Assembly (NCBI RefSeq): GCF_003018255.1
Contig: NZ_CP027440.1
Direction: 5' to 3' (one strand)
DNA: 64,000 bases
From: Escherichia coli
GTDB lineage: Bacteria > Pseudomonadota > Gammaproteobacteria > Enterobacterales > Enterobacteriaceae
The notes under the pieces are model-generated. The model searched no databases. It saw only the letters and a list, made by a program, of their open reading frames with translations, and had not been told where the DNA came from. Position numbers and translations under genes: made by a program. Shown in pieces: positions 12,408 through 54,690 of the stretch. Each line of letters begins with the position of its first letter. The stretch's first letter is position 1.

Positions 12408-13868
<1,461 letters not shown>

Positions 13869-14032
13869 TTAGCCGATGTGCCTGATGTGCTCCGCTCATC
13901 AGGCCTGGCACTCTTTTAATATATTGAGCTCGCAATATTTTATATTACGCCTCAGTCGAAACACACAAAGCGCACTTTATTAACAAGCTAAAAGGCGCCG
14001 AAGCGCCTTTAGAAAATAGTCGAATCAGTGAA

Positions 14033-23847: not shown

Positions 23848-24033
23848 ATTTCTCTGAGATGTTCGCAAGCGGGCCAGTCCCCTGAGCCGATATTTCATAC
23901 CACAAGAATGTGGCGCTCCGCGGTTGGTGAGCATGCTCGGTCCGTCCGAGAAGCCTTAAAACTGCGACGACACATTCACCTTGAACCAAGGGTTCAAGGG
24001 TTACAGCCTGCGGCGGCATCTCGGAGATTCCCT
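23848..24033 (+). ncRNA. ssrS: 6S RNA, RNA polymerase sigma-70 holoenzyme regulator
   Basis: Sequence ATTTCTCTGAGATGTTCGCAAGCGGGCCAGTCCCCTGAGCCGATATTTCATACCACAAGAATGTGGCGCTCCGCGG... matches E. coli 6S RNA as I recall it; lies between zapA and ygfA. Confidence 0.9.
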
Positions 24034-24105: not shown

Positions 24106-24654
24106 ATGATTCGGCAACGTCGTCGTGCGTTAACGCCGGAACAACAGCAGGAAATGGGTCAACAAGCCGCTACCCGGATGATGACTTATCCCCCGGTGGT
24201 GATGGCACATACGGTCGCTGTATTCCTCTCTTTTGATGGCGAACTCGACACCCTGCCACTCATAGAACAACTCTGGCGCGCCGGTAAGCGCGTATATCTT
24301 CCAGTTTTGCATCCCTTCAGTGCCGGTAATTTGCTGTTCCTGAATTACCATCCGCAAAGCGAACTGGTGATGAACAGGTTGAAGATCCATGAGCCCAAAC
24401 TGGATGTGCGTGACGTGCTACCCCTTTCCCGATTAGACGTGTTGATCACACCGCTGGTCGCCTTTGATGAGTACGGTCAGCGCCTGGGAATGGGCGGTGG
24501 TTTTTATGATCGGACCTTACAAAACTGGCAGCACTATAAAATGCAACCGGTGGGTTATGCGCATGATTGTCAGTTGGTGGAAAAACTCCCCGTTGAAGAG
24601 TGGGATATCCCTCTTCCTGCGGTGGTTACACCGTCGAAAGTCTGGGAGTGGTGA
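24106..24654 (+). CDS. ygfA: 5-formyltetrahydrofolate cyclo-ligase (182 aa)
   Basis: ORF 23908-24654 trimmed to the ATG at 24106 (MIRQRRRALTPEQQQ...), downstream of the 6S RNA 3' end. Confidence 0.8.
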   Translation: MIRQRRRALTPEQQQEMGQQAATRMMTYPPVVMAHTVAVFLSFDGELDTLPLIEQLWRAGKRVYLPVLHPFSAGNLLFLNYHPQSELVMNRLKIHEPKLDVRDVLPLSRLDVLITPLVAFDEYGQRLGMGGGFYDRTLQNWQHYKMQPVGYAHDCQLVEKLPVEEWDIPLPAVVTPSKVWEW

Positions 24655-24711
24655 GGGCGACACACCTGCATCGCCCTGATTGACATCGTTGATTCTTTAA
24701 CCTAATTTAGT

Positions 24712-24856
24712 GAGTAAGGGTAAGGGAGGATGACTCCTCCCCTGAGACTGACTGTTAATAAGCTGGGAAACTTATGAGTAACAGTACAATCAGTATGATG
24801 ACAAGTCGCATCATAACCCTTCTCCTTCAAGCCCTCGCTTCGGTGAGGGCTTTACC
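24712..24856 (+). ncRNA. sibC: SibC-type antisense sRNA (type I antitoxin); boundaries approximate
   Basis: + strand region fully antisense to ibsC, ending in the hairpin GCCCTC-gcttcggt-GAGGGC followed by TTT; K-12 has sibC/ibsC between ygfA and serA. Confidence 0.5.
24755..24814 (-). CDS. ibsC: Type I toxin IbsC, 19-aa hydrophobic peptide
   Basis: Minus-strand ORF read from sequence: ATGATGCGACTTGTCATCATACTGATTGTACTGTTACTCATAAGTTTCCCAGCTTATTAA = MMRLVIILIVLLLISFPAY; GGAGAAGGG SD upstream. Confidence 0.7.
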   Translation of the reverse strand: MMRLVIILIVLLLISFPAY

Positions 24857-24991
24857 GTTACAGCCCCATGCTGCCCTGCCATCGTAAATCCCCATTAAAT
24901 AAACACAACGCATTGATCTGACTTTGATTTATTTTCTGGAGCAGACTCGCAAAGTAGAATGCGCAATGCGGCAACGGTGTGGAGAAGGGAT

Positions 24992-25023
24992 AAAAAAACG
25001 GGCAAGTCAGTGACCTGCCCGTT
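24992..25023 (-). terminator. serA rho-independent terminator
   Basis: Hairpin CGGGCA(A/G)G...CTGCCCG; on the - strand the stem is followed by TTTTTTT, about 20 nt after the serA stop. Confidence 0.55.
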
Positions 25024-25042
25024 GATTTTCAGATAAGGGGAT

Positions 25043-26275
25043 TTAGTACAGCAGACGGGCGCGAATGGTACCCGGAATAGCTTTCATTGCCTGCAGCGCT
25101 TTTTCGGCAACGTCTTCGTCGGCTTCAATATCAATAACTACATAACCCATCTGGGCGGAAGTTTGCAGATATTGCGCGGCGATGTTGACGCCCTGCTCGG
25201 CAAAAATTTTGTTGAGCGCAGTCAGCACACCCGGACGGTTTTCGTGGATGTGCATCAGACGACGACCACCGTGCAGTGGCAGCGAGACTTCCGGGAAGTT
25301 CACCGCAGAGAGCGTTGAACCATTATCAGAATACTTGATCAATTTACCCGCAACTTCCAGACCGATATTCTCCTGCGCTTCCTGAGTCGAACCACCAATG
25401 TGTGGCGTCAGAAGGACATTGTCGAATTCACACAGCGGAGAGGTAAATGGATCGCTATTGGTCGCCGGTTCCGTCGGGAATACGTCGATTGCCGCCCCTG
25501 CCAGATGTTTGCTCGCCAGCGCGTCACACAGCGCTGGAATATCCACCACAGTACCGCGCGAAGCATTAATCAGCAGCGAGCCGGGCTTCATTAGCGAAAT
25601 CTCTTTCGCGCCCATCATATTTTTGGTGGACGGATTCTCTGGTACATGCAGACTCACCACATCGCTCATATTCAGCAGGTCAGAAAGATGCTGTACCTGA
25701 GTGGCGTTGCCCAGCGGCAGTTTGTTTTCAATATCATAAAAGTAAACATACATTCCCAGCGATTCAGCCAGAATGCCCAATTGCGTACCAATATGACCGT
25801 AGCCGATGATACCCAGCTTTTTGCCGCGCGCTTCAAAAGAACCCGCCGCCAGTTTGTTCCACACGCCACGATGCGCTTTAGCATTGGCTTCCGGCACGCC
25901 GCGCAATAGCAGCAGCAGTTCGCCAATCACCAGCTCCGCAACAGAGCGCGTATTTGAGAACGGTGCGTTAAATACCGGGATCCCGCGTTTTGCCGCCGCA
26001 TCCAGATCAACCTGGTTTGTTCCGATACAGAAACAGCCAATAGCGACCAGTTTTTCTGCGGCGTTGATCACGTCTTCAGTCAGATGGGTACGGGATCGCA
26101 GGCCGATGAAGTGGGCATCGCGGATGGATTCTTTTAATTGTTCATCATCCAGCGCGCCTTTGTGAAATTCGATGTTGGTGTAACCCGCTGCACGAAGGCT
26201 TTCCAGCGCCTTTTGGTGCACGCCTTCTACCAGCAGAAACTTAATCTTGTCTTTCTCCAGCGATACCTTTGCCAT
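25043..26275 (-). CDS. serA: D-3-phosphoglycerate dehydrogenase (410 aa)
   Basis: ORF 25043-26275; 2-hydroxyacid dehydrogenase with C-terminal ACT domain. Confidence 0.95.
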   Translation of the reverse strand: MAKVSLEKDKIKFLLVEGVHQKALESLRAAGYTNIEFHKGALDDEQLKESIRDAHFIGLRSRTHLTEDVINAAEKLVAIGCFCIGTNQVDLDAAAKRGIPVFNAPFSNTRSVAELVIGELLLLLRGVPEANAKAHRGVWNKLAAGSFEARGKKLGIIGYGHIGTQLGILAESLGMYVYFYDIENKLPLGNATQVQHLSDLLNMSDVVSLHVPENPSTKNMMGAKEISLMKPGSLLINASRGTVVDIPALCDALASKHLAGAAIDVFPTEPATNSDPFTSPLCEFDNVLLTPHIGGSTQEAQENIGLEVAGKLIKYSDNGSTLSAVNFPEVSLPLHGGRRLMHIHENRPGVLTALNKIFAEQGVNIAAQYLQTSAQMGYVVIDIEADEDVAEKALQAMKAIPGTIRARLLY

Positions 26276-42868: not shown

Positions 42869-43184
42869 TCAATGCAGGGAGTCTATTATATTACACGTTT
42901 GGTCCGCGCCGCCGATCAGTAATGTCTGCGTCCGCACCCCATTCGCCGTCTGTTGGATACCGTTCACCAACTCGCCGCCCGTCACGCCCGTAGCGCTAAA
43001 GAGGATATCGTTCCCCCTCGCCGATAACCACTCGCCCACGAAAAGCGACGTCGTTTAATGCCTGGCGCATCGCGGTGACCGCCAGGCCATCAATTTTATT
43101 TTTGTCGCCACATCCGGTTTGCGGCCAGGCAGCCAACGCTGCCTGTTCCGTAACGCGAAATAATGGCCACGCCAGGGACATCAT
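42869..43184 (-). pseudogene. yggF: Remnant of class II fructose-1,6-bisphosphatase gene yggF (GlpX family): about 56 N-terminal codons joined out of frame to about 40 C-terminal codons
   Basis: Track ORF 42996-43184 ([20 protein letters not shown]...VVIGEGE) is a GlpX-type N-terminus ending in a premature TAG; the +1 frame of the same DNA continues ...[49 protein letters not shown] to a stop at 42869; only about 0.33 kb remains where a roughly 1-kb gene is expected. Confidence 0.6.
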
Positions 43185-46332: not shown

Positions 46333-46708
46333 AAATAATCCTTATTTTATTTTTAGGGCACCGTCCGGCGGTAAAAATAAAATACTCGTGCGGTTTAATG
46401 AAAGCAATTGGGTACGCGAGAAGAAAAACCCCATGAACAAAAATAATAAAACTTTAAATAACAACAACATGAAATTGATATTTTTAAAGTCAACTTTGTA
46501 TTTGTTATGTTTATCACAAAATCAACATTTTGATTGTTGTTGTATTTGTGATACATATCGCCATTTATTTATTGAATGTCCGAAAGCATACTTTTCTAAT
46601 GCAATGTTTTTTCGCTATACCCCTTTATAGATTCTGAATTCTCACCTGTCGGCTATTTTCTCCTCACCTCATGTGACATATTCCCCACTTTACTCAAGGA
46701 AGATTCAT

Positions 46709-47617
46709 ATGAAAGCACCTGTTTCAATAACCTCATTTCGCCCACAAAAATCTATTGCTATCGTCATTGGCGTGCTTGCCGTGGTTGTGCTGCCATTTCT
46801 CTCGTATTACACCGTTAATGAAGGTGAACGCGGCATTTTGCTGCGCTACGGAAAAATCGTAAAAGTTGCCGAGCCGGGTCTGGGTTTTAAGATCCCTTTT
46901 ATGGAAAGCGTGGAGAAAATTTCCACGCGTAATCAGGCTGTGGTTTATCAGGGATTACAGGCCTACAGCCGCGACCAGCAACCGGCACAAATGACAGTAT
47001 CAGTCAGCTTCCACATTAAACCTTCAGAAGCAGGCGCGGTTTATACCACCTACAACACCATTGAAGCATTAAAAGATCGTCTGATTGTCCGTCAGTTGCC
47101 AACTCAACTGGAGAACGTTTTCGGCCAATATACCGCCATCAGCGCCGTACAGGATCGTACAAAACTGGTTCAGGATCTACAAAATGCAATGCGTAAAGCC
47201 GTTGTTGGCCCGGTGGTGATTGATGGTGTCCAGATTGAAAATATTGATTTTTCTGACGCTTATGAAAAATCGATTGAAGATCGAATGAAAGCAGAAGTCG
47301 CCATTGCCACACGTAAGCAAAATCTGGAAACAGAGAAAATCCAGGCGCAAATAGCGGTAACTCAGGCCCAGGCAGAAGCAGACAGTAAACTGGCGGCAGC
47401 CAAAGCAGAAGCTGAGACTATTCGCGTAAGAGGCGCGGCAGAGGCTGAAACTATTCGTTTAAAAAGTGCGGCTGAAGCAGAAGCGATCCGCCTGCGCGGT
47501 GAAGCTCTGCGGGATAATCCCGGACTTGTTGCCCTCACCACTGCTGAGCGTTGGGACGGTAAGCTACCCGATACCATGATCCCCGGCAGTACAGTTCCGT
47601 TTATCTCTACTAAGTAA
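46709..47617 (+). CDS. SPFH/band-7 (stomatin/prohibitin/flotillin/HflKC-like) membrane protein, 302 aa, stand-alone
   Basis: ORF 46673-47617 trimmed to the ATG at 46709 with AAGGAAG 6 nt upstream; one N-terminal TM helix, SPFH core, C-terminal Ala/Glu-rich tail with tandem AEAETIR-like repeats; not at this position in K-12 as I recall. Confidence 0.8.
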   Translation: MKAPVSITSFRPQKSIAIVIGVLAVVVLPFLSYYTVNEGERGILLRYGKIVKVAEPGLGFKIPFMESVEKISTRNQAVVYQGLQAYSRDQQPAQMTVSVSFHIKPSEAGAVYTTYNTIEALKDRLIVRQLPTQLENVFGQYTAISAVQDRTKLVQDLQNAMRKAVVGPVVIDGVQIENIDFSDAYEKSIEDRMKAEVAIATRKQNLETEKIQAQIAVTQAQAEADSKLAAAKAEAETIRVRGAAEAETIRLKSAAEAEAIRLRGEALRDNPGLVALTTAERWDGKLPDTMIPGSTVPFISTK

Positions 47618-47645
47618 AAAAAGGGCCGCTTTCGCGGCCCTTCTC
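47616..47645. terminator. tktA rho-independent terminator, also abutting the SPFH gene stop
   Basis: Hairpin GGGCCGC-tttc-GCGGCCC flanked by A7 on the + side; on the - strand followed by TTTTTTT. Confidence 0.6.
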
Positions 47646-47662
47646 ACAAAGCATCTTACCGA

Positions 47663-51769: not shown

Positions 51770-51836
51770 TTGGATTTGCGAAACACAATTTTGTGCTAAT
51801 TATCGCCTTAAATGGGCGAGGCATCAAGCGAGGTTG

Positions 51837-52568
51837 CTATTTCCGACACGGTGGCGGCGCATAGCCATTGTTATCTGCCGGAAAGGCTTGTCCAGAGCAC
51901 GGCGGCAGCGCGTTTTGCGCCGGGCCTTGTAATTCAAAGGCGGCAAAGCCGATTACACCGGTATTACGCACATCGCCTTGCGCCGAATTGGCTGCGTAGG
52001 AATCAGCAACGTTGGCGAACTGAAAAGCCGCTTCGGTATGTTTATCTTTGCGGAATCCTTTAATCGCTAACGAATCTCCGGCATTCACAATATAGCCGTT
52101 GTTATTCAGCGAACCTTGCTTGCCGTTCAGCACATCCAGGCCATCAACCGTAGCAACGATCTCGTAGTTGGTGTTACGACTGTAATTGCGGACATATAAT
52201 TGATAATTCATTCCTACTCTGGCATGGACAATATAGCGTGGTTCATTATTTGACGAATCATAAACCCGCGTAATAGGTAGAGAATTAAAATTACCATCGC
52301 GAATAGCATATTCAAGTTCGTTAATACGAATGCTATAAACGCGGTCATAGCCGGAAGGAACAGTAGTCGAATAACTAATAACGATCATCTCTGCCGGATC
52401 GCGCCAAGCTCGCTCAGCAGATACGCCCTGAACCGTTGAGTGCACATCCCCACCCCAGGCGGTGCCGACATTGCCTGATGCACTGCTATTATACTGCGCA
52501 TTACTGGAACAACCGGCCAGCAGCACGGCTAATGCTATCAACGCGCTACGTACTTTCCCTTTTTTCAT
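51837..52568 (-). CDS. Lipoprotein of unknown function (243 aa)
   Basis: ORF 51837-52568; signal peptide with lipobox LLAG-C (MKKGKVRSALIALAVLLAGCSSN); GAGGGA SD upstream; Asn/Ser/Tyr/Gly-rich mature region with two C-terminal Cys; not at this position in K-12 as I recall. Confidence 0.75.
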   Translation of the reverse strand: MKKGKVRSALIALAVLLAGCSSNAQYNSSASGNVGTAWGGDVHSTVQGVSAERAWRDPAEMIVISYSTTVPSGYDRVYSIRINELEYAIRDGNFNSLPITRVYDSSNNEPRYIVHARVGMNYQLYVRNYSRNTNYEIVATVDGLDVLNGKQGSLNNNGYIVNAGDSLAIKGFRKDKHTEAAFQFANVADSYAANSAQGDVRNTGVIGFAAFELQGPAQNALPPCSGQAFPADNNGYAPPPCRK

Positions 52569-52655
52569 AACCGTTCCCTCTGCATTTAATTAATGCAGCG
52601 ATTGTAGGGAGATTATTTAATAAGAAAAGCAGCTAAATTATTTTTAAGAATATAT

Positions 52656-52696
52656 AAAAAGAAAGCGGGCCGATTTACGTAAATAAATCGACCCGC
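52656..52696 (-). terminator. speA rho-independent terminator
   Basis: 13-bp stem GCGGGCCGATTTA / TAAATCGACCCGC with one mismatch; on the - strand followed by TTTCTTTTT, about 20 nt after the speA stop. Confidence 0.55.
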
Positions 52697-52713
52697 CAGC
52701 GGAATAATCTTAA

Positions 52714-54690
52714 TTATTCATCTTCAAGATAGGTATAACCGTACAAACCTGCCTCGAACTCTTCAAGGAACTGTTGTTGCAGTTCAGCATCAAGATCGGT
52801 TTTCTTCACTTGATCACGGAACTGGGTTAACAACGTTTTCGGATCGAGCTGTACATATTGCAGCATATCCGCCACGGTATCGCCTTCGTCAGACAGTTCT
52901 ACTTCTACGCTGCCGTCAGGGAAGACGAACACGTCAACCGCTTCGGTATCACCGAACAGGTTGTGCATGTTGCCGAGGATCTCCTGATATGCGCCGACCA
53001 TGAAGAAACCGAGCATCGGCGGATTCTCTGGATCGTACTCCGGCATTGGCATTGTCGTGGCAATACCATCACCATCGATGTAGTGATCAATAGCACCGTC
53101 AGAATCACAGGTAATATCCAGCAGCACAGCGCGGCGCTCCGGCACTTGATCCAACCCTTCCAGCGGCAGAACCGGGAACAACTGGTCGATCCCCCATGCG
53201 TCCGGCATCGACTGGAACAGCGAGAAGTTGACGTACATTTTGTCAGCCATACGTTCCTGCAGCTCGTCGATAATCGGACGATGCGCACGGTTTTGCGGAT
53301 CCAGTTGCTTCTGCACTTCATGGCACATGCTCAGATAGAGTTGTTCTGCCCATGCACGTTCTTGCAGGCTAAAGGTGCCGGAAGAGTAGCCGATATGAAT
53401 ATCGTGCAGATCCATCTGGCTGTCGTGTAACCATTCACGCAGAGAACGACGAGTTCCCGGTTCGTGCATCTCCTGCCAGGTTTCCCACATGCTTTGCAGG
53501 GCGCGCGGTGCGTCTTCTGCAGGCGCGGTCGGCACCGTGTATTCGTTACGTTCCACGCCGATGATATTCGACACCAGCACGGTGTGATGCGCAGTCACCG
53601 CACGACCCGACTCGGTGATTACCGTCGGATGTGGCAGACCATTTTCTTCACACGCATCACCAATCGCCCAGATGATGTTGTTGGCGTATTCATTGAGGCC
53701 GTAGTTCACCGAACAGTCGGACTGCGAACGGGTGCCTTCATAGTCCACGCCCAGACCGCCGCCAACGTCGAAGCACTGAATATTGACGCCCAGCTTGTGC
53801 AGTTCCACATAGAAACGCGCGGATTCACGAACGCCTGTCGCGATATCGCGAATATTCGCCATCTGCGAACCGAGGTGGAAGTGCAGCAGTTGCAGGCTGT
53901 CGAGACGCCCGGCTTCACGCAGCGTTTCAACCAGTTGCAGTACCTGAGTCGCCGCCAGGCCGAACTTCGATTTTTCCCCGCCAGAGGACTGCCATTTACC
54001 CGAGCCCTGCGAAGCCAGACGTGCACGCACGCCCAGACGAGGAACGACATTCAGACGTTCTGCTTCATCCAGCACAATGGCAATTTCTGACATCTTCTCA
54101 ATGACCAGATAGACCTTGTGGCCCATCTTCTCGCCAATTAATGCCAGGCGGATATATTCGCGGTCCTTATAACCGTTGCAGACGATGACGCTACGGGTCA
54201 TGCCAGCATGTGCCAGCACCGCCATCAACTCCGCTTTGGAACCGGCTTCCAGGCCCAGCGGTTCGCCCGAATGAATCAGGGACTCAATCACGCGGCGGTG
54301 CTGGTTAACTTTGATCGGATAAACGAGGAAGTAATCGCCGTTATAGCCGTAGGATTCCCGCGCACGTTTGAACGCGGCGTTAATAGAACGCAAACGGTGC
54401 TGCAGGATCTGTGGGAAACAGAACAGTGCAGGCAGACGCTGGCCCTGTGCTTCACGAGTTTTCACTAACTGCGCGAGATCGACGCGAGCTTCCGGGACGT
54501 CCGGGTCCGGGCACACGCTAATGTGGCCCAGCTCGTTAACGTCATAGTAGTTATTGCCCCACCAGGCAATATTGTAAGTACGCAGCATCTTGCTGGCTTC
54601 CTGGGAGCTCATTGCAACCTCCTGCATGGAGCGTAGTACACCGTGTTCGCCCGCTGACGAAGGCAAACCCATAGACATGTCGTCAGACAT
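52714..54690 (-). CDS. speA: Biosynthetic arginine decarboxylase (658 aa)
   Basis: ORF 52714-54702 trimmed to [21 protein letters not shown]...; PLP-dependent fold-III decarboxylase. Confidence 0.95.

What the first reader, a model, noticed from the sequence alone, without database searches (positions are those of the whole stretch)
24700..24870. Type I toxin-antitoxin locus ibsC/SibC in the ygfA-serA spacer
A 19-codon minus-strand ORF with a strong SD encodes the hydrophobic peptide MMRLVIILIVLLLISFPAY, characteristic of Ibs membrane toxins. The + strand across it carries a terminator hairpin (GCCCTC-gcttcggt-GAGGGC) consistent with the cis-antisense SibC RNA. Too small for the ORF track, so it is easily missed.
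Basis: partly seen in the sequence, partly recalled or inferred. Interest (0 to 1): 0.45.

Follow-up and report, generated by a model that had tools for sequence, protein, structure and literature searches.

The report
Known E. coli sibC/ibsC toxin-antitoxin locus
This is the well-studied E. coli sibC/ibsC locus, where a 19-residue membrane toxin gene is silenced by a small RNA made from the opposite strand; it is ordinary, and differs from the laboratory strain only by a common natural allele at three bases known to set RNA-RNA specificity.

Summary
The window is E. coli chromosome, collinear with K-12 3.031-3.095 Mb. The fau(ygfA)-serA spacer holds one Sib/Ibs unit. Rfam SIB_RNA matches full length (136.5 bits, cut-off 56, E 5e-28). 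An ungapped alignment to K-12 places SibC at 24716-24856 (+) and ibsC at 24814-24755 (-), encoding MMRLVIILIVLLLISFPAY. RefSeq annotates this exact spacer as ibsC in strain Rb-50.

By homology to published K-12 work, SibC pairs with the ibsC mRNA through two recognition domains. TRD1 lies over codons 11-18 and TRD2 over the ribosome-binding site and start codon. Pairing blocks synthesis of a membrane-depolarising peptide.

This allele differs from K-12 at SibC +49..+51 (UGG instead of GCU, giving Pro17 instead of Ser17). That is the triplet Han et al. 2010 swapped to re-target SibC. The allele is common: an exact 57-mer match occurs in 990 of 5426 complete genomes. The spacer also varies in copy number between strains (0, 1 or 2 units).

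Verdict: already known, low interest.

The parts
24680..24708 (+). sibC promoter: -35 TTGACA (24680-24685), 17-nt spacer, -10 TAATTT (24703-24708)
   Evidence: Read. The Rfam SIB_RNA model begins at this TTGACA. TTGAC and the spacing are kept in all K-12 paralogues. The strict consensus scan did not call it, because the -10 matches only 3 of 6. One base (24699 A, G in K-12) differs in the spacer. Promoter function is inferred.
24716..24856 (+). SibC antitoxin sRNA, 141 nt
   Evidence: K-12 sibC at 3056851-3056991 was transferred through an ungapped alignment. The MFE fold is -55.3 kcal/mol, z = -4.9. The family consensus structure has 42 pairs, 10 of them with compensatory changes.
24761..24783 (+). 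TRD1 (SibC +46..+68), the apical-loop recognition domain over ibsC codons 11-18. The essential core is 24761-24768. The variable triplet is 24764-24766 (UGG here, GCU in K-12).
   Evidence: Domain limits come from Han et al. 2010. The numbering was checked against K-12 G18, G29, G47, G49 and A54.
24814..24830 (+). TRD2 (SibC +99..+115), a single-stranded stretch complementary to the ibsC Shine-Dalgarno sequence and start codon; identical to K-12
   Evidence: Han et al. 2010. C107UCCUUC113 corresponds to 24822-24828. Identity to K-12 is shown.
24829..24852 (+). SibC terminator stem-loop (10 bp, UUCG loop) followed by UUUACC
   Evidence: The fold is. Five compensatory pair changes between paralogues occur in this stem. 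The K-12 3' end maps to 24856. The consensus scan does not call it because only 3 T follow.
24881..24908 (-). ibsC promoter: -35 TTGTGT (24908..24903), 16-nt spacer, -10 TACGAT (24886..24881)
   Evidence: Read, and aligned with TTGCGT/AACAAT upstream of K-12 ibsD and ibsE. It lies 7 nt upstream of the start site deduced from Han et al. Promoter function is inferred. It was not called by the strict scan.
24716..24874 (-). ibsC mRNA, 159 nt (5' end G24874, 18 nt beyond the SibC 3' end; 3' end opposite SibC +1)
   Evidence: Han et al. 2010 report a 159-nt mRNA with an 18-nt 5' overhang, and G50/G51/G53 of the mRNA pairing with C110/C109/C107 of SibC. These numbers fit the window coordinates exactly. 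Transferred by homology, not measured here.
24822..24827 (-). Shine-Dalgarno sequence AAGGAG, 7 nt before the first ATG
24755..24814 (-). ibsC CDS: 19 codons plus TAA, MMRLVIILIVLLLISFPAY
   Evidence: Identical to RefSeq WP_071525914.1, named IbsC, in Rb-50 and MS 16-3. 95% identical to K-12 IbsC and 68-84% to IbsA, B, D and E.

Best explanation
This is the chromosomal type I toxin-antitoxin pair sibC/ibsC of Escherichia coli, present as a single unit between fau (ygfA) and serA. The minus strand makes a 159-nt mRNA for IbsC, a 19-residue hydrophobic peptide. In K-12, overproduced IbsC inserts in the inner membrane, depolarises it and stops growth. The plus strand makes the 141-nt SibC RNA. 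SibC is fully complementary to all but the first 18 nt of that mRNA. Pairing starts at two independent sites. TRD1 is the apical loop, which meets the mRNA over codons 11-18. TRD2 is a single-stranded stretch that meets the ribosome-binding site and start codon. Pairing then spreads, which blocks translation and leads to mRNA decay, so the toxin is normally not made. Shown here: the sequence, the ORF, the RNA family match, the fold, synteny with K-12 and the population distribution. Inferred from published K-12 experiments at 97% sequence identity: transcription of both strands, repression and toxicity. The allele here carries UGG instead of GCU at SibC +49..+51, which gives Pro17 instead of Ser17 in IbsC. 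Both strands change together, so cognate pairing is kept.
For: Rfam SIB_RNA matches full length at 136.5 bits against a cut-off of 56, E 5.4e-28. The ORF and peptide are confirmed. The spacer is 100% identical to strain Rb-50, where RefSeq names the CDS ibsC. At least 80% of the spacer is found in 5421 of 5426 complete E. coli genomes. K-12 carries sibC and ibsC at the same place between fau and serA, with an ungapped alignment. The window is collinear with K-12 3,031,113-3,095,221 at 96-98% identity. The fold is stable, z = -4.9. The family consensus structure has 10 compensatory pairs, and TRD1 falls in a loop. All 11 Sib/Ibs copies compared keep an 18-19 codon ORF with an MM start, an AAGGA ribosome-binding site and a TAA stop. 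The mechanism comes from Han et al. 2010 PMC2943612, the review PMC8309996 and SibC northern blots in PMC4447067.
Against: Nothing contradicts it. There are four limits. No expression data exist for this strain. The strict sigma-70 and terminator consensus scans call neither promoter nor the SibC terminator, since the -10 boxes are weak and only three U follow the stem. The NCBIfam scan of the peptide, padded to 23 aa, gave no hit, but the K-12 IbsC control also gave none, so the test is uninformative. The toxicity of the Pro17 variant itself has not been tested, to my knowledge.
Confidence: 0.97

Rival explanations
1. The unit is the counterpart of the fau-proximal copy ('copy 1', annotated only as 'Ibs family toxin') of strains that carry two tandem units in this spacer, rather than a strict orthologue of the K-12 sibC/ibsC allele. 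It would be the same kind of locus with the same mechanism but a distinct specificity allele. It could have arisen by duplication with divergence, or by unequal crossover between tandem copies.
For: In the alignment of single-copy and two-copy spacers, the window shares the TRD1 triplet TGG, A at 24699 and T at 24667 with copy 1 of TH9F11 and O157:H7 86-24. It also shares C at +113 with copy 1. Downstream of about 24880 it follows the serA-proximal (copy 2 and K-12) flank. About 1886 genomes have two places for the spacer query (7311 places in 5425 genomes).
Against: There are only a handful of informative sites. The P2-loop bases +17/+18 (GA) are shared with copy 2 and with O157 copy 1, but not with TH9F11 copy 1, so gene conversion blurs the history. 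RefSeq names the identical protein IbsC.
Confidence: 0.35
2. The locus is a decayed, non-functional relic of a Sib/Ibs repeat, as seen for some chromosomal hok/sok copies.
For: Some strains have lost the unit altogether: O157:H7 TR01 has a 181-nt deletion. That suggests it is dispensable.
Against: The ORF, ribosome-binding site and start and stop codons are intact, as are the -35 TTGACA, TRD2 and the terminator. The Rfam match is full length, positions 1-147 of 147. The exact allele recurs in 990 genomes.
Confidence: 0.03
3. A chance small hydrophobic ORF next to a chance hairpin.
For: None beyond the small size of the features.
Against: Rfam E-value is 5.4e-28. The sequence is conserved in 5421 of 5426 genomes at the same site. 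The fold z-score is -4.9, with 0 of 200 shuffles folding as well.
Confidence: 0

Closest known systems
sibC/ibsC of E. coli K-12 MG1655 (b4446/b4665)
   Same: It has the same position between fau and serA, the same strands and the same lengths (141-nt sRNA, 19-codon ORF). The spacer is 97.4% identical without gaps. TRD2, the ribosome-binding site, the terminator and the -35 box are identical.
   Different: Six bases differ within the locus. 24699 is A instead of G, in the promoter spacer. SibC +17/+18 are GA instead of UG, in the P2 loop, which lies in the +1 to +29 stretch that is not required for repression according to Han et al.. SibC +49..+51 are UGG instead of GCU, which changes IbsC Ser17 to Pro and alters the TRD1 core.
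The other Sib/Ibs pairs of K-12 (sibA/ibsA, sibB/ibsB, sibD/ibsD, sibE/ibsE)
   Same: They share the architecture and the secondary structure, with compensatory changes. The peptides are 68-84% identical, with invariant M1 M2 I6 I7 L11 L12 S15 F16 Y19.
   Different: They sit at different loci (yegL-mdtA and yqiK-hldE). Their TRD1 and TRD2 sequences differ. The TRD1 triplet is UGG here, against CUG (A), GGG (B), UGC (D) and CGG (E). Pro17 is shared with IbsB and IbsE.
Tandem Ibs/Sib pair in the fau-serA spacer of other E. coli strains (e.g. TH9F11, O157:H7 86-24)
   Same: The same spacer. The window's unit is nearly identical to their fau-proximal copy, including TGG at TRD1.
   Different: Those strains carry a second unit about 392 bp downstream, with TCC at the triplet (Gly17) and U at +113 in TRD2. 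The window has one unit only.
Other cis-antisense type I toxin-antitoxin systems (hok/sok, ldr/rdl)
   Same: Each has a small hydrophobic membrane toxin and an antisense RNA antitoxin, and chromosomal copies are often repeated in tandem (PMC2887945).
   Different: The Sib RNA covers the whole toxin ORF and its translation initiation region, not just a leader or part of the mRNA (PMC2943612). The families are unrelated in sequence.

Membership tests
Sib antitoxin sRNA (Rfam RF00113 SIB_RNA) | Sequence-and-structure match to the family covariance model above the curated gathering score | tested here: met
   136.5 bits against 56, model positions 1-147 of 147, E 5.4e-28
Sib antitoxin sRNA (Rfam RF00113 SIB_RNA) | Conserved fold: closing stem P1, 5' hairpin P2, long hairpin with apical loop (P5, TRD1), hairpin P6, terminator P7 | tested here: met
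   The MFE structure shows all these elements. The consensus of 10 copies has 42 pairs, 10 with compensatory changes.
Sib antitoxin sRNA (Rfam RF00113 SIB_RNA) | Encoded antisense to, and spanning, the whole ibs ORF and its translation initiation region | tested here: met
   SibC at 24716-24856 (+) encloses the CDS at 24755-24814 (-) and the Shine-Dalgarno sequence at 24822-24827
Sib antitoxin sRNA (Rfam RF00113 SIB_RNA) | Accumulates as an RNA of about 140 nt and represses its cognate ibs mRNA | not testable with these tools
   Shown for K-12 only (PMC2943612; PMC4447067)
Ibs type I toxin | 18-19 residue, highly hydrophobic peptide with the family's invariant residues (MM start, SF at 15-16, C-terminal Y) | tested here: met
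   Alignment with IbsA-E shows M1 M2 I6 I7 L11 L12 S15 F16 Y19 invariant. The same holds in 11 copies.
Ibs type I toxin | Recognised as Ibs by curated annotation | tested here: met
   The identical protein WP_071525914.1 is named 'type I toxin-antitoxin system toxin IbsC' by RefSeq
Ibs type I toxin | Match to a protein family HMM | tested here: inconclusive
   The NCBIfam scan of the peptide, padded to 23 aa, gave no hit, and neither did K-12 IbsC as a positive control. The peptide is too short for the Pfam tool.
Ibs type I toxin | Toxic on overexpression, with membrane depolarisation | not testable with these tools
   Reported for K-12 IbsC (review PMC8309996). The Pro17 variant was not tested.
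Orthologue of K-12 sibC/ibsC, same specificity | Same genomic position (fau-serA) | tested here: met
Orthologue of K-12 sibC/ibsC, same specificity | Same TRD2 recognition sequence (+99..+115) | tested here: met
   Identical
Orthologue of K-12 sibC/ibsC, same specificity | Same TRD1 recognition core (+46..+53) | tested here: not met
   +49..+51 is UGG, not GCU. This is the triplet whose replacement by UGC re-targets SibC to ibsD (PMC2943612). Cognate pairing is preserved because both strands change together.

The most novel reading that the evidence does not exclude
The fau-serA Sib/Ibs unit may exist in the E. coli population as a series of specificity alleles. In six units from four strains, 4 of the 11 variable sites fall in the 8-nt TRD1 core, with UGG, GCU or UCC at +49..+51 and G or C at +52, so Ibs residue 17 is P, S or G. 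This pattern would fit selection for orthogonality between co-resident copies. The UGG allele here is one mismatch from SibD's UGC, so it might partly cross-repress ibsD, which the K-12 SibC allele does not.
Probability: 0.2. Interest if true: 0.3.

Novelty: already known. Interest (0 to 1): 0.08.

Why it matters
It matters little beyond correct annotation. The locus is a textbook type I toxin-antitoxin pair, and gene callers miss it because the ORF is only 19 codons. The modest added value is that natural alleles of this locus differ at exactly the three bases shown experimentally to determine which ibs mRNA a Sib RNA recognises. The number of units in this spacer also varies between strains (0, 1 or 2). 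This gives a ready-made natural series for testing how duplicated antisense pairs stay insulated from each other.

Tried and rejected
- The strict sigma-70 and terminator consensus scan of 24550-25100 found no promoter and only the serA terminator. The sib and ibs promoters have weak -10 boxes, and the SibC stem is followed by only three T. I therefore placed these elements by homology and by the published numbering.
- The NCBIfam HMM scan of the peptide, padded with its four in-frame upstream codons to reach the 20-aa minimum, gave nothing. The K-12 control also gave nothing, so the result is uninformative.
- The primary papers Fozo et al. 2008 (PMC2597788) and Mok et al. 2010 (PMC3009890) are not held. 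Statements on toxicity and mRNA decay rest on Han et al. 2010 and a 2021 review that cite them.
- My first guess at the ibsD/E region of strain Rb-50 missed it because of capsule and type II secretion islands. The second guess found it.
- A search for papers linking ygfA transcription to sibC found nothing useful.
- The identity of the locus was settled without them, and a 19-residue peptide is unsuited to them.
- I first mis-indexed the line starting at 24880, and the ibsC -10 box seemed too close to the start site. After re-reading and aligning, the promoter geometry is normal, with the -10 box ending 7 nt before the start.

Full report
**1. What is in the sequence**

The minus strand of 24755-24835 translates to RA*RRRVMMRLVIILIVLLLISFPAY*. 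The ORF of 19 codons plus TAA is therefore 24814..24755 (-). An AAGGAG sits 7 nt upstream of the first ATG, at 24827..24822.

The hairpin GCCCTC-gcttcggt-GAGGGC is at 24831-24850 on the plus strand. It does not lie across the ORF; it starts 15 nt or more beyond the ibsC start codon. The neighbours are fau (=ygfA, stop codon ending at 24654) and serA (25043-26275, minus strand). The 6S RNA gene ssrS lies upstream of fau at 23848-24031.

**2. Is it more than chance**

A scan of the whole window against Rfam gives two hits at gathering threshold. One is 6S RNA. The other is SIB_RNA (RF00113) at 24680-24830 (+), with 136.5 bits against a cut-off of 56, E 5.4e-28, and all 147 model positions matched.

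The 388-bp fau-serA spacer is 100% identical to E. coli strain Rb-50. It is found, with at least 80% of its length covered, in 5421 of 5426 complete E. coli genomes. RefSeq annotates ibsC under the match. The window as a whole is collinear with K-12 MG1655 3,031,113-3,095,221 at 96-98% identity.

**3. Exact anatomy**

K-12 annotates sibC at 3056851-3056991 (+) and ibsC at 3056890-3056949 (-). The window and K-12 spacers align without gaps. This places features as follows:

- SibC at 24716-24856 (+).
- The ibsC CDS at 24755-24814 (-).
- The sibC promoter at TTGACA 24680-24685, then 17 nt, then TAATTT 24703-24708.

The Rfam model starts at the TTGACA, that is, at the promoter, so its coordinates are not the RNA ends.

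I checked the numbering of Han et al. 2010 (PMC2943612) against the sequence. G18, G29, G47, G49 and A54 fall where the paper puts them. The paper's ibsC mRNA is 159 nt with an 18-nt 5' overhang, and its G50, G51 and G53 pair with SibC C110, C109 and C107. Those numbers fit a start at G24874 and an end at 24716.

Seven nt upstream of that start lies TACGAT (24886..24881). A further 16 nt upstream lies TTGTGT (24908..24903). These align with AACAAT and TTGCGT upstream of K-12 ibsD and ibsE.

TRD1 (+46..+68) is 24761-24783, over ibsC codons 11-18. TRD2 (+99..+115) is 24814-24830, over the start codon and Shine-Dalgarno sequence.

**4. Structure**

The 141-nt RNA folds at -55.3 kcal/mol, against -35.5 ± 4.0 for shuffles (z = -4.9). 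The fold has a closing stem, a 5' hairpin, a long hairpin whose apical loop holds the TRD1 core, a third hairpin, a single-stranded TRD2 stretch, and a 10-bp terminator stem with a UUCG loop at 24829-24852.

A consensus fold of ten Sib copies gives the same elements. The ten were the window, the five K-12 paralogues, and copies from Rb-50, TH9F11 and O157:H7 86-24. The consensus has 42 pairs, 10 of which show compensatory double changes. Five of those are in the terminator stem.

The strict terminator scan does not call this stem, because only three T follow it. However, the K-12 3' end maps just after it, and Han et al. call it the terminator.

**5. The peptide**

The peptide is 95% identical to K-12 IbsC (Ser17 replaced by Pro) and 68-84% identical to IbsA, B, D and E. 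M1 M2 I6 I7 L11 L12 S15 F16 Y19 are invariant. All 11 Sib/Ibs units I compared keep an intact 18-19 codon ORF, an AAGGA ribosome-binding site and a TAA stop. RefSeq names the identical protein WP_071525914.1 as IbsC.

An NCBIfam scan of the padded peptide found nothing. The K-12 control also found nothing, so that test says nothing either way.

**6. Mechanism**

The mechanism is inferred from K-12 experiments.

- Sib RNAs of about 140 nt repress only their cognate ibs mRNA.
- SibC has two independent recognition domains, and contacts at TRD1 and TRD2 spread into longer duplexes.
- Repression leads to decay of the mRNA.
- Overproduced IbsC depolarises the membrane within minutes and induces the psp operon.
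- SibC is detected on northern blots, and the sigma-S form of RNA polymerase binds its promoter region.

At 97% identity, with every functional element intact, the same mechanism is by far the most likely here. It has not been measured for this strain.

**7. What differs from K-12**

Six bases differ within the locus:

- 24699 is A instead of G, in the promoter spacer.
- SibC +17/+18 are GA instead of UG, in the loop of the 5' hairpin. This lies in the +1 to +29 stretch that is not required for repression.
- SibC +49..+51 are UGG instead of GCU.

The last change replaces codon 17 of ibsC (AGC Ser to CCA Pro). It is exactly the triplet that Han et al. changed to UGC in order to re-target SibC to ibsD. 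Both strands change together, so cognate pairing is kept, and TRD2 is unchanged.

The triplet differs from all five K-12 paralogues: CUG, GGG, GCU, UGC and CGG. It also differs from the single SibE-like unit of strain Rb-50, which additionally differs in TRD2. It is one base away from SibD's UGC.

The allele is common. The exact 57-mer centred on it occurs in 990 of 5426 genomes, and the K-12 57-mer in 1548.

**8. Population context**

The spacer query hits 7311 places in 5425 genomes, so roughly 1886 genomes have two places for the query. I inspected two of these, TH9F11 and O157:H7 86-24. Both carry two tandem units about 392 bp apart in this spacer. Four genomes cover less than 80% of the spacer. 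The one I inspected, O157:H7 TR01, has a 181-nt deletion that removes the unit between two CAT triplets.

Among six units from this spacer, 11 of 141 positions vary. Four of them are +49..+52, in the TRD1 core, and one is +113, in TRD2. The window's unit resembles the fau-proximal copy of two-copy strains and is joined to the serA-proximal flank.

Variable numbers of ibs genes between strains are already reported: seven in O157:H7 Sakai against five in K-12 (PMC2887945).

**9. Verdict**

The locus is already known and well studied. Interest is low. The only point worth keeping is the natural allele at the experimentally defined specificity triplet, together with the copy-number polymorphism of the spacer.

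Noticed in passing
window 23848-24031 (+): 6S RNA gene ssrS: Rfam 6S at 139.8 bits against a cut-off of 46.4, full length, just upstream of fau as in K-12.
   Followed up: yes
window 24655-24715, with scan range 24550-25100: No intrinsic terminator is detected between the fau stop codon (24654) and the sibC promoter and start. Read-through from the ssrS-fau operon would therefore run antisense across ibsC and could end at the SibC terminator. This is inference only.
   Followed up: no
L007 2419-3198 and L008 2419-3199 (fau-serA spacer of TH9F11 and O157:H7 86-24): Both strains carry two tandem Sib/Ibs units about 392 bp apart in this spacer. Copy 1 has TGG and copy 2 has TCC at the TRD1 triplet (Pro17 and Gly17). 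RefSeq names copy 2 ibsC and copy 1 only 'Ibs family toxin'. About 1886 genomes give two places for the spacer query and so probably have the same arrangement.
   Followed up: partly
L003 2468-2674 (O157:H7 TR01): This is one of four genomes that cover less than 80% of the spacer. It has a 181-nt deletion running from just after the sibC -35 TTGACAT to just before GCTGCC, with CAT at both edges.
   Followed up: partly
L013 20181-20598 (Rb-50 hldE-yqiK spacer): Strain Rb-50, whose fau-serA spacer is identical to the window, has one Ibs/Sib unit (IbsE-like, MMKFVIILVVLLLLSFPTY) where K-12 has the ibsD and ibsE pair.
   Followed up: partly
window 46410-47662; ORF 46673-47617 (+): About 1 kb is absent from K-12 between cmtB and tktA. 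It encodes a 314-aa protein that RefSeq calls 'prohibitin family protein'. At least 80% of the query is present in 1816 of 5426 genomes.
   Followed up: partly
window 51778-52714; ORF 51837-52568 (-): About 0.9 kb is absent from K-12 between speB and speA. It encodes a 243-aa protein with a lipoprotein-like N-terminus (LLAGCSS), annotated 'hypothetical protein'. It is present in 3550 of 5426 genomes.
   Followed up: partly
window 13868-13990 and about 43011-43019: Relative to K-12, ygfF is absent between bglA and gcvP; a short REP-like palindrome is there instead. About 650 bp of yggF are deleted, leaving only about 330 bp between fumE and yggP.
   Followed up: partly
window 24997-25023 (-): A canonical intrinsic terminator of serA, with a 12-bp stem followed by TTTTTAT. 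It is the only terminator-like site the scan found in the spacer.
   Followed up: yes
E. coli genome collection, not in the window: One match to the fau-serA spacer, of the K-12 ibsC type, lies on a record classed as a plasmid. I did not look at it.
   Followed up: no
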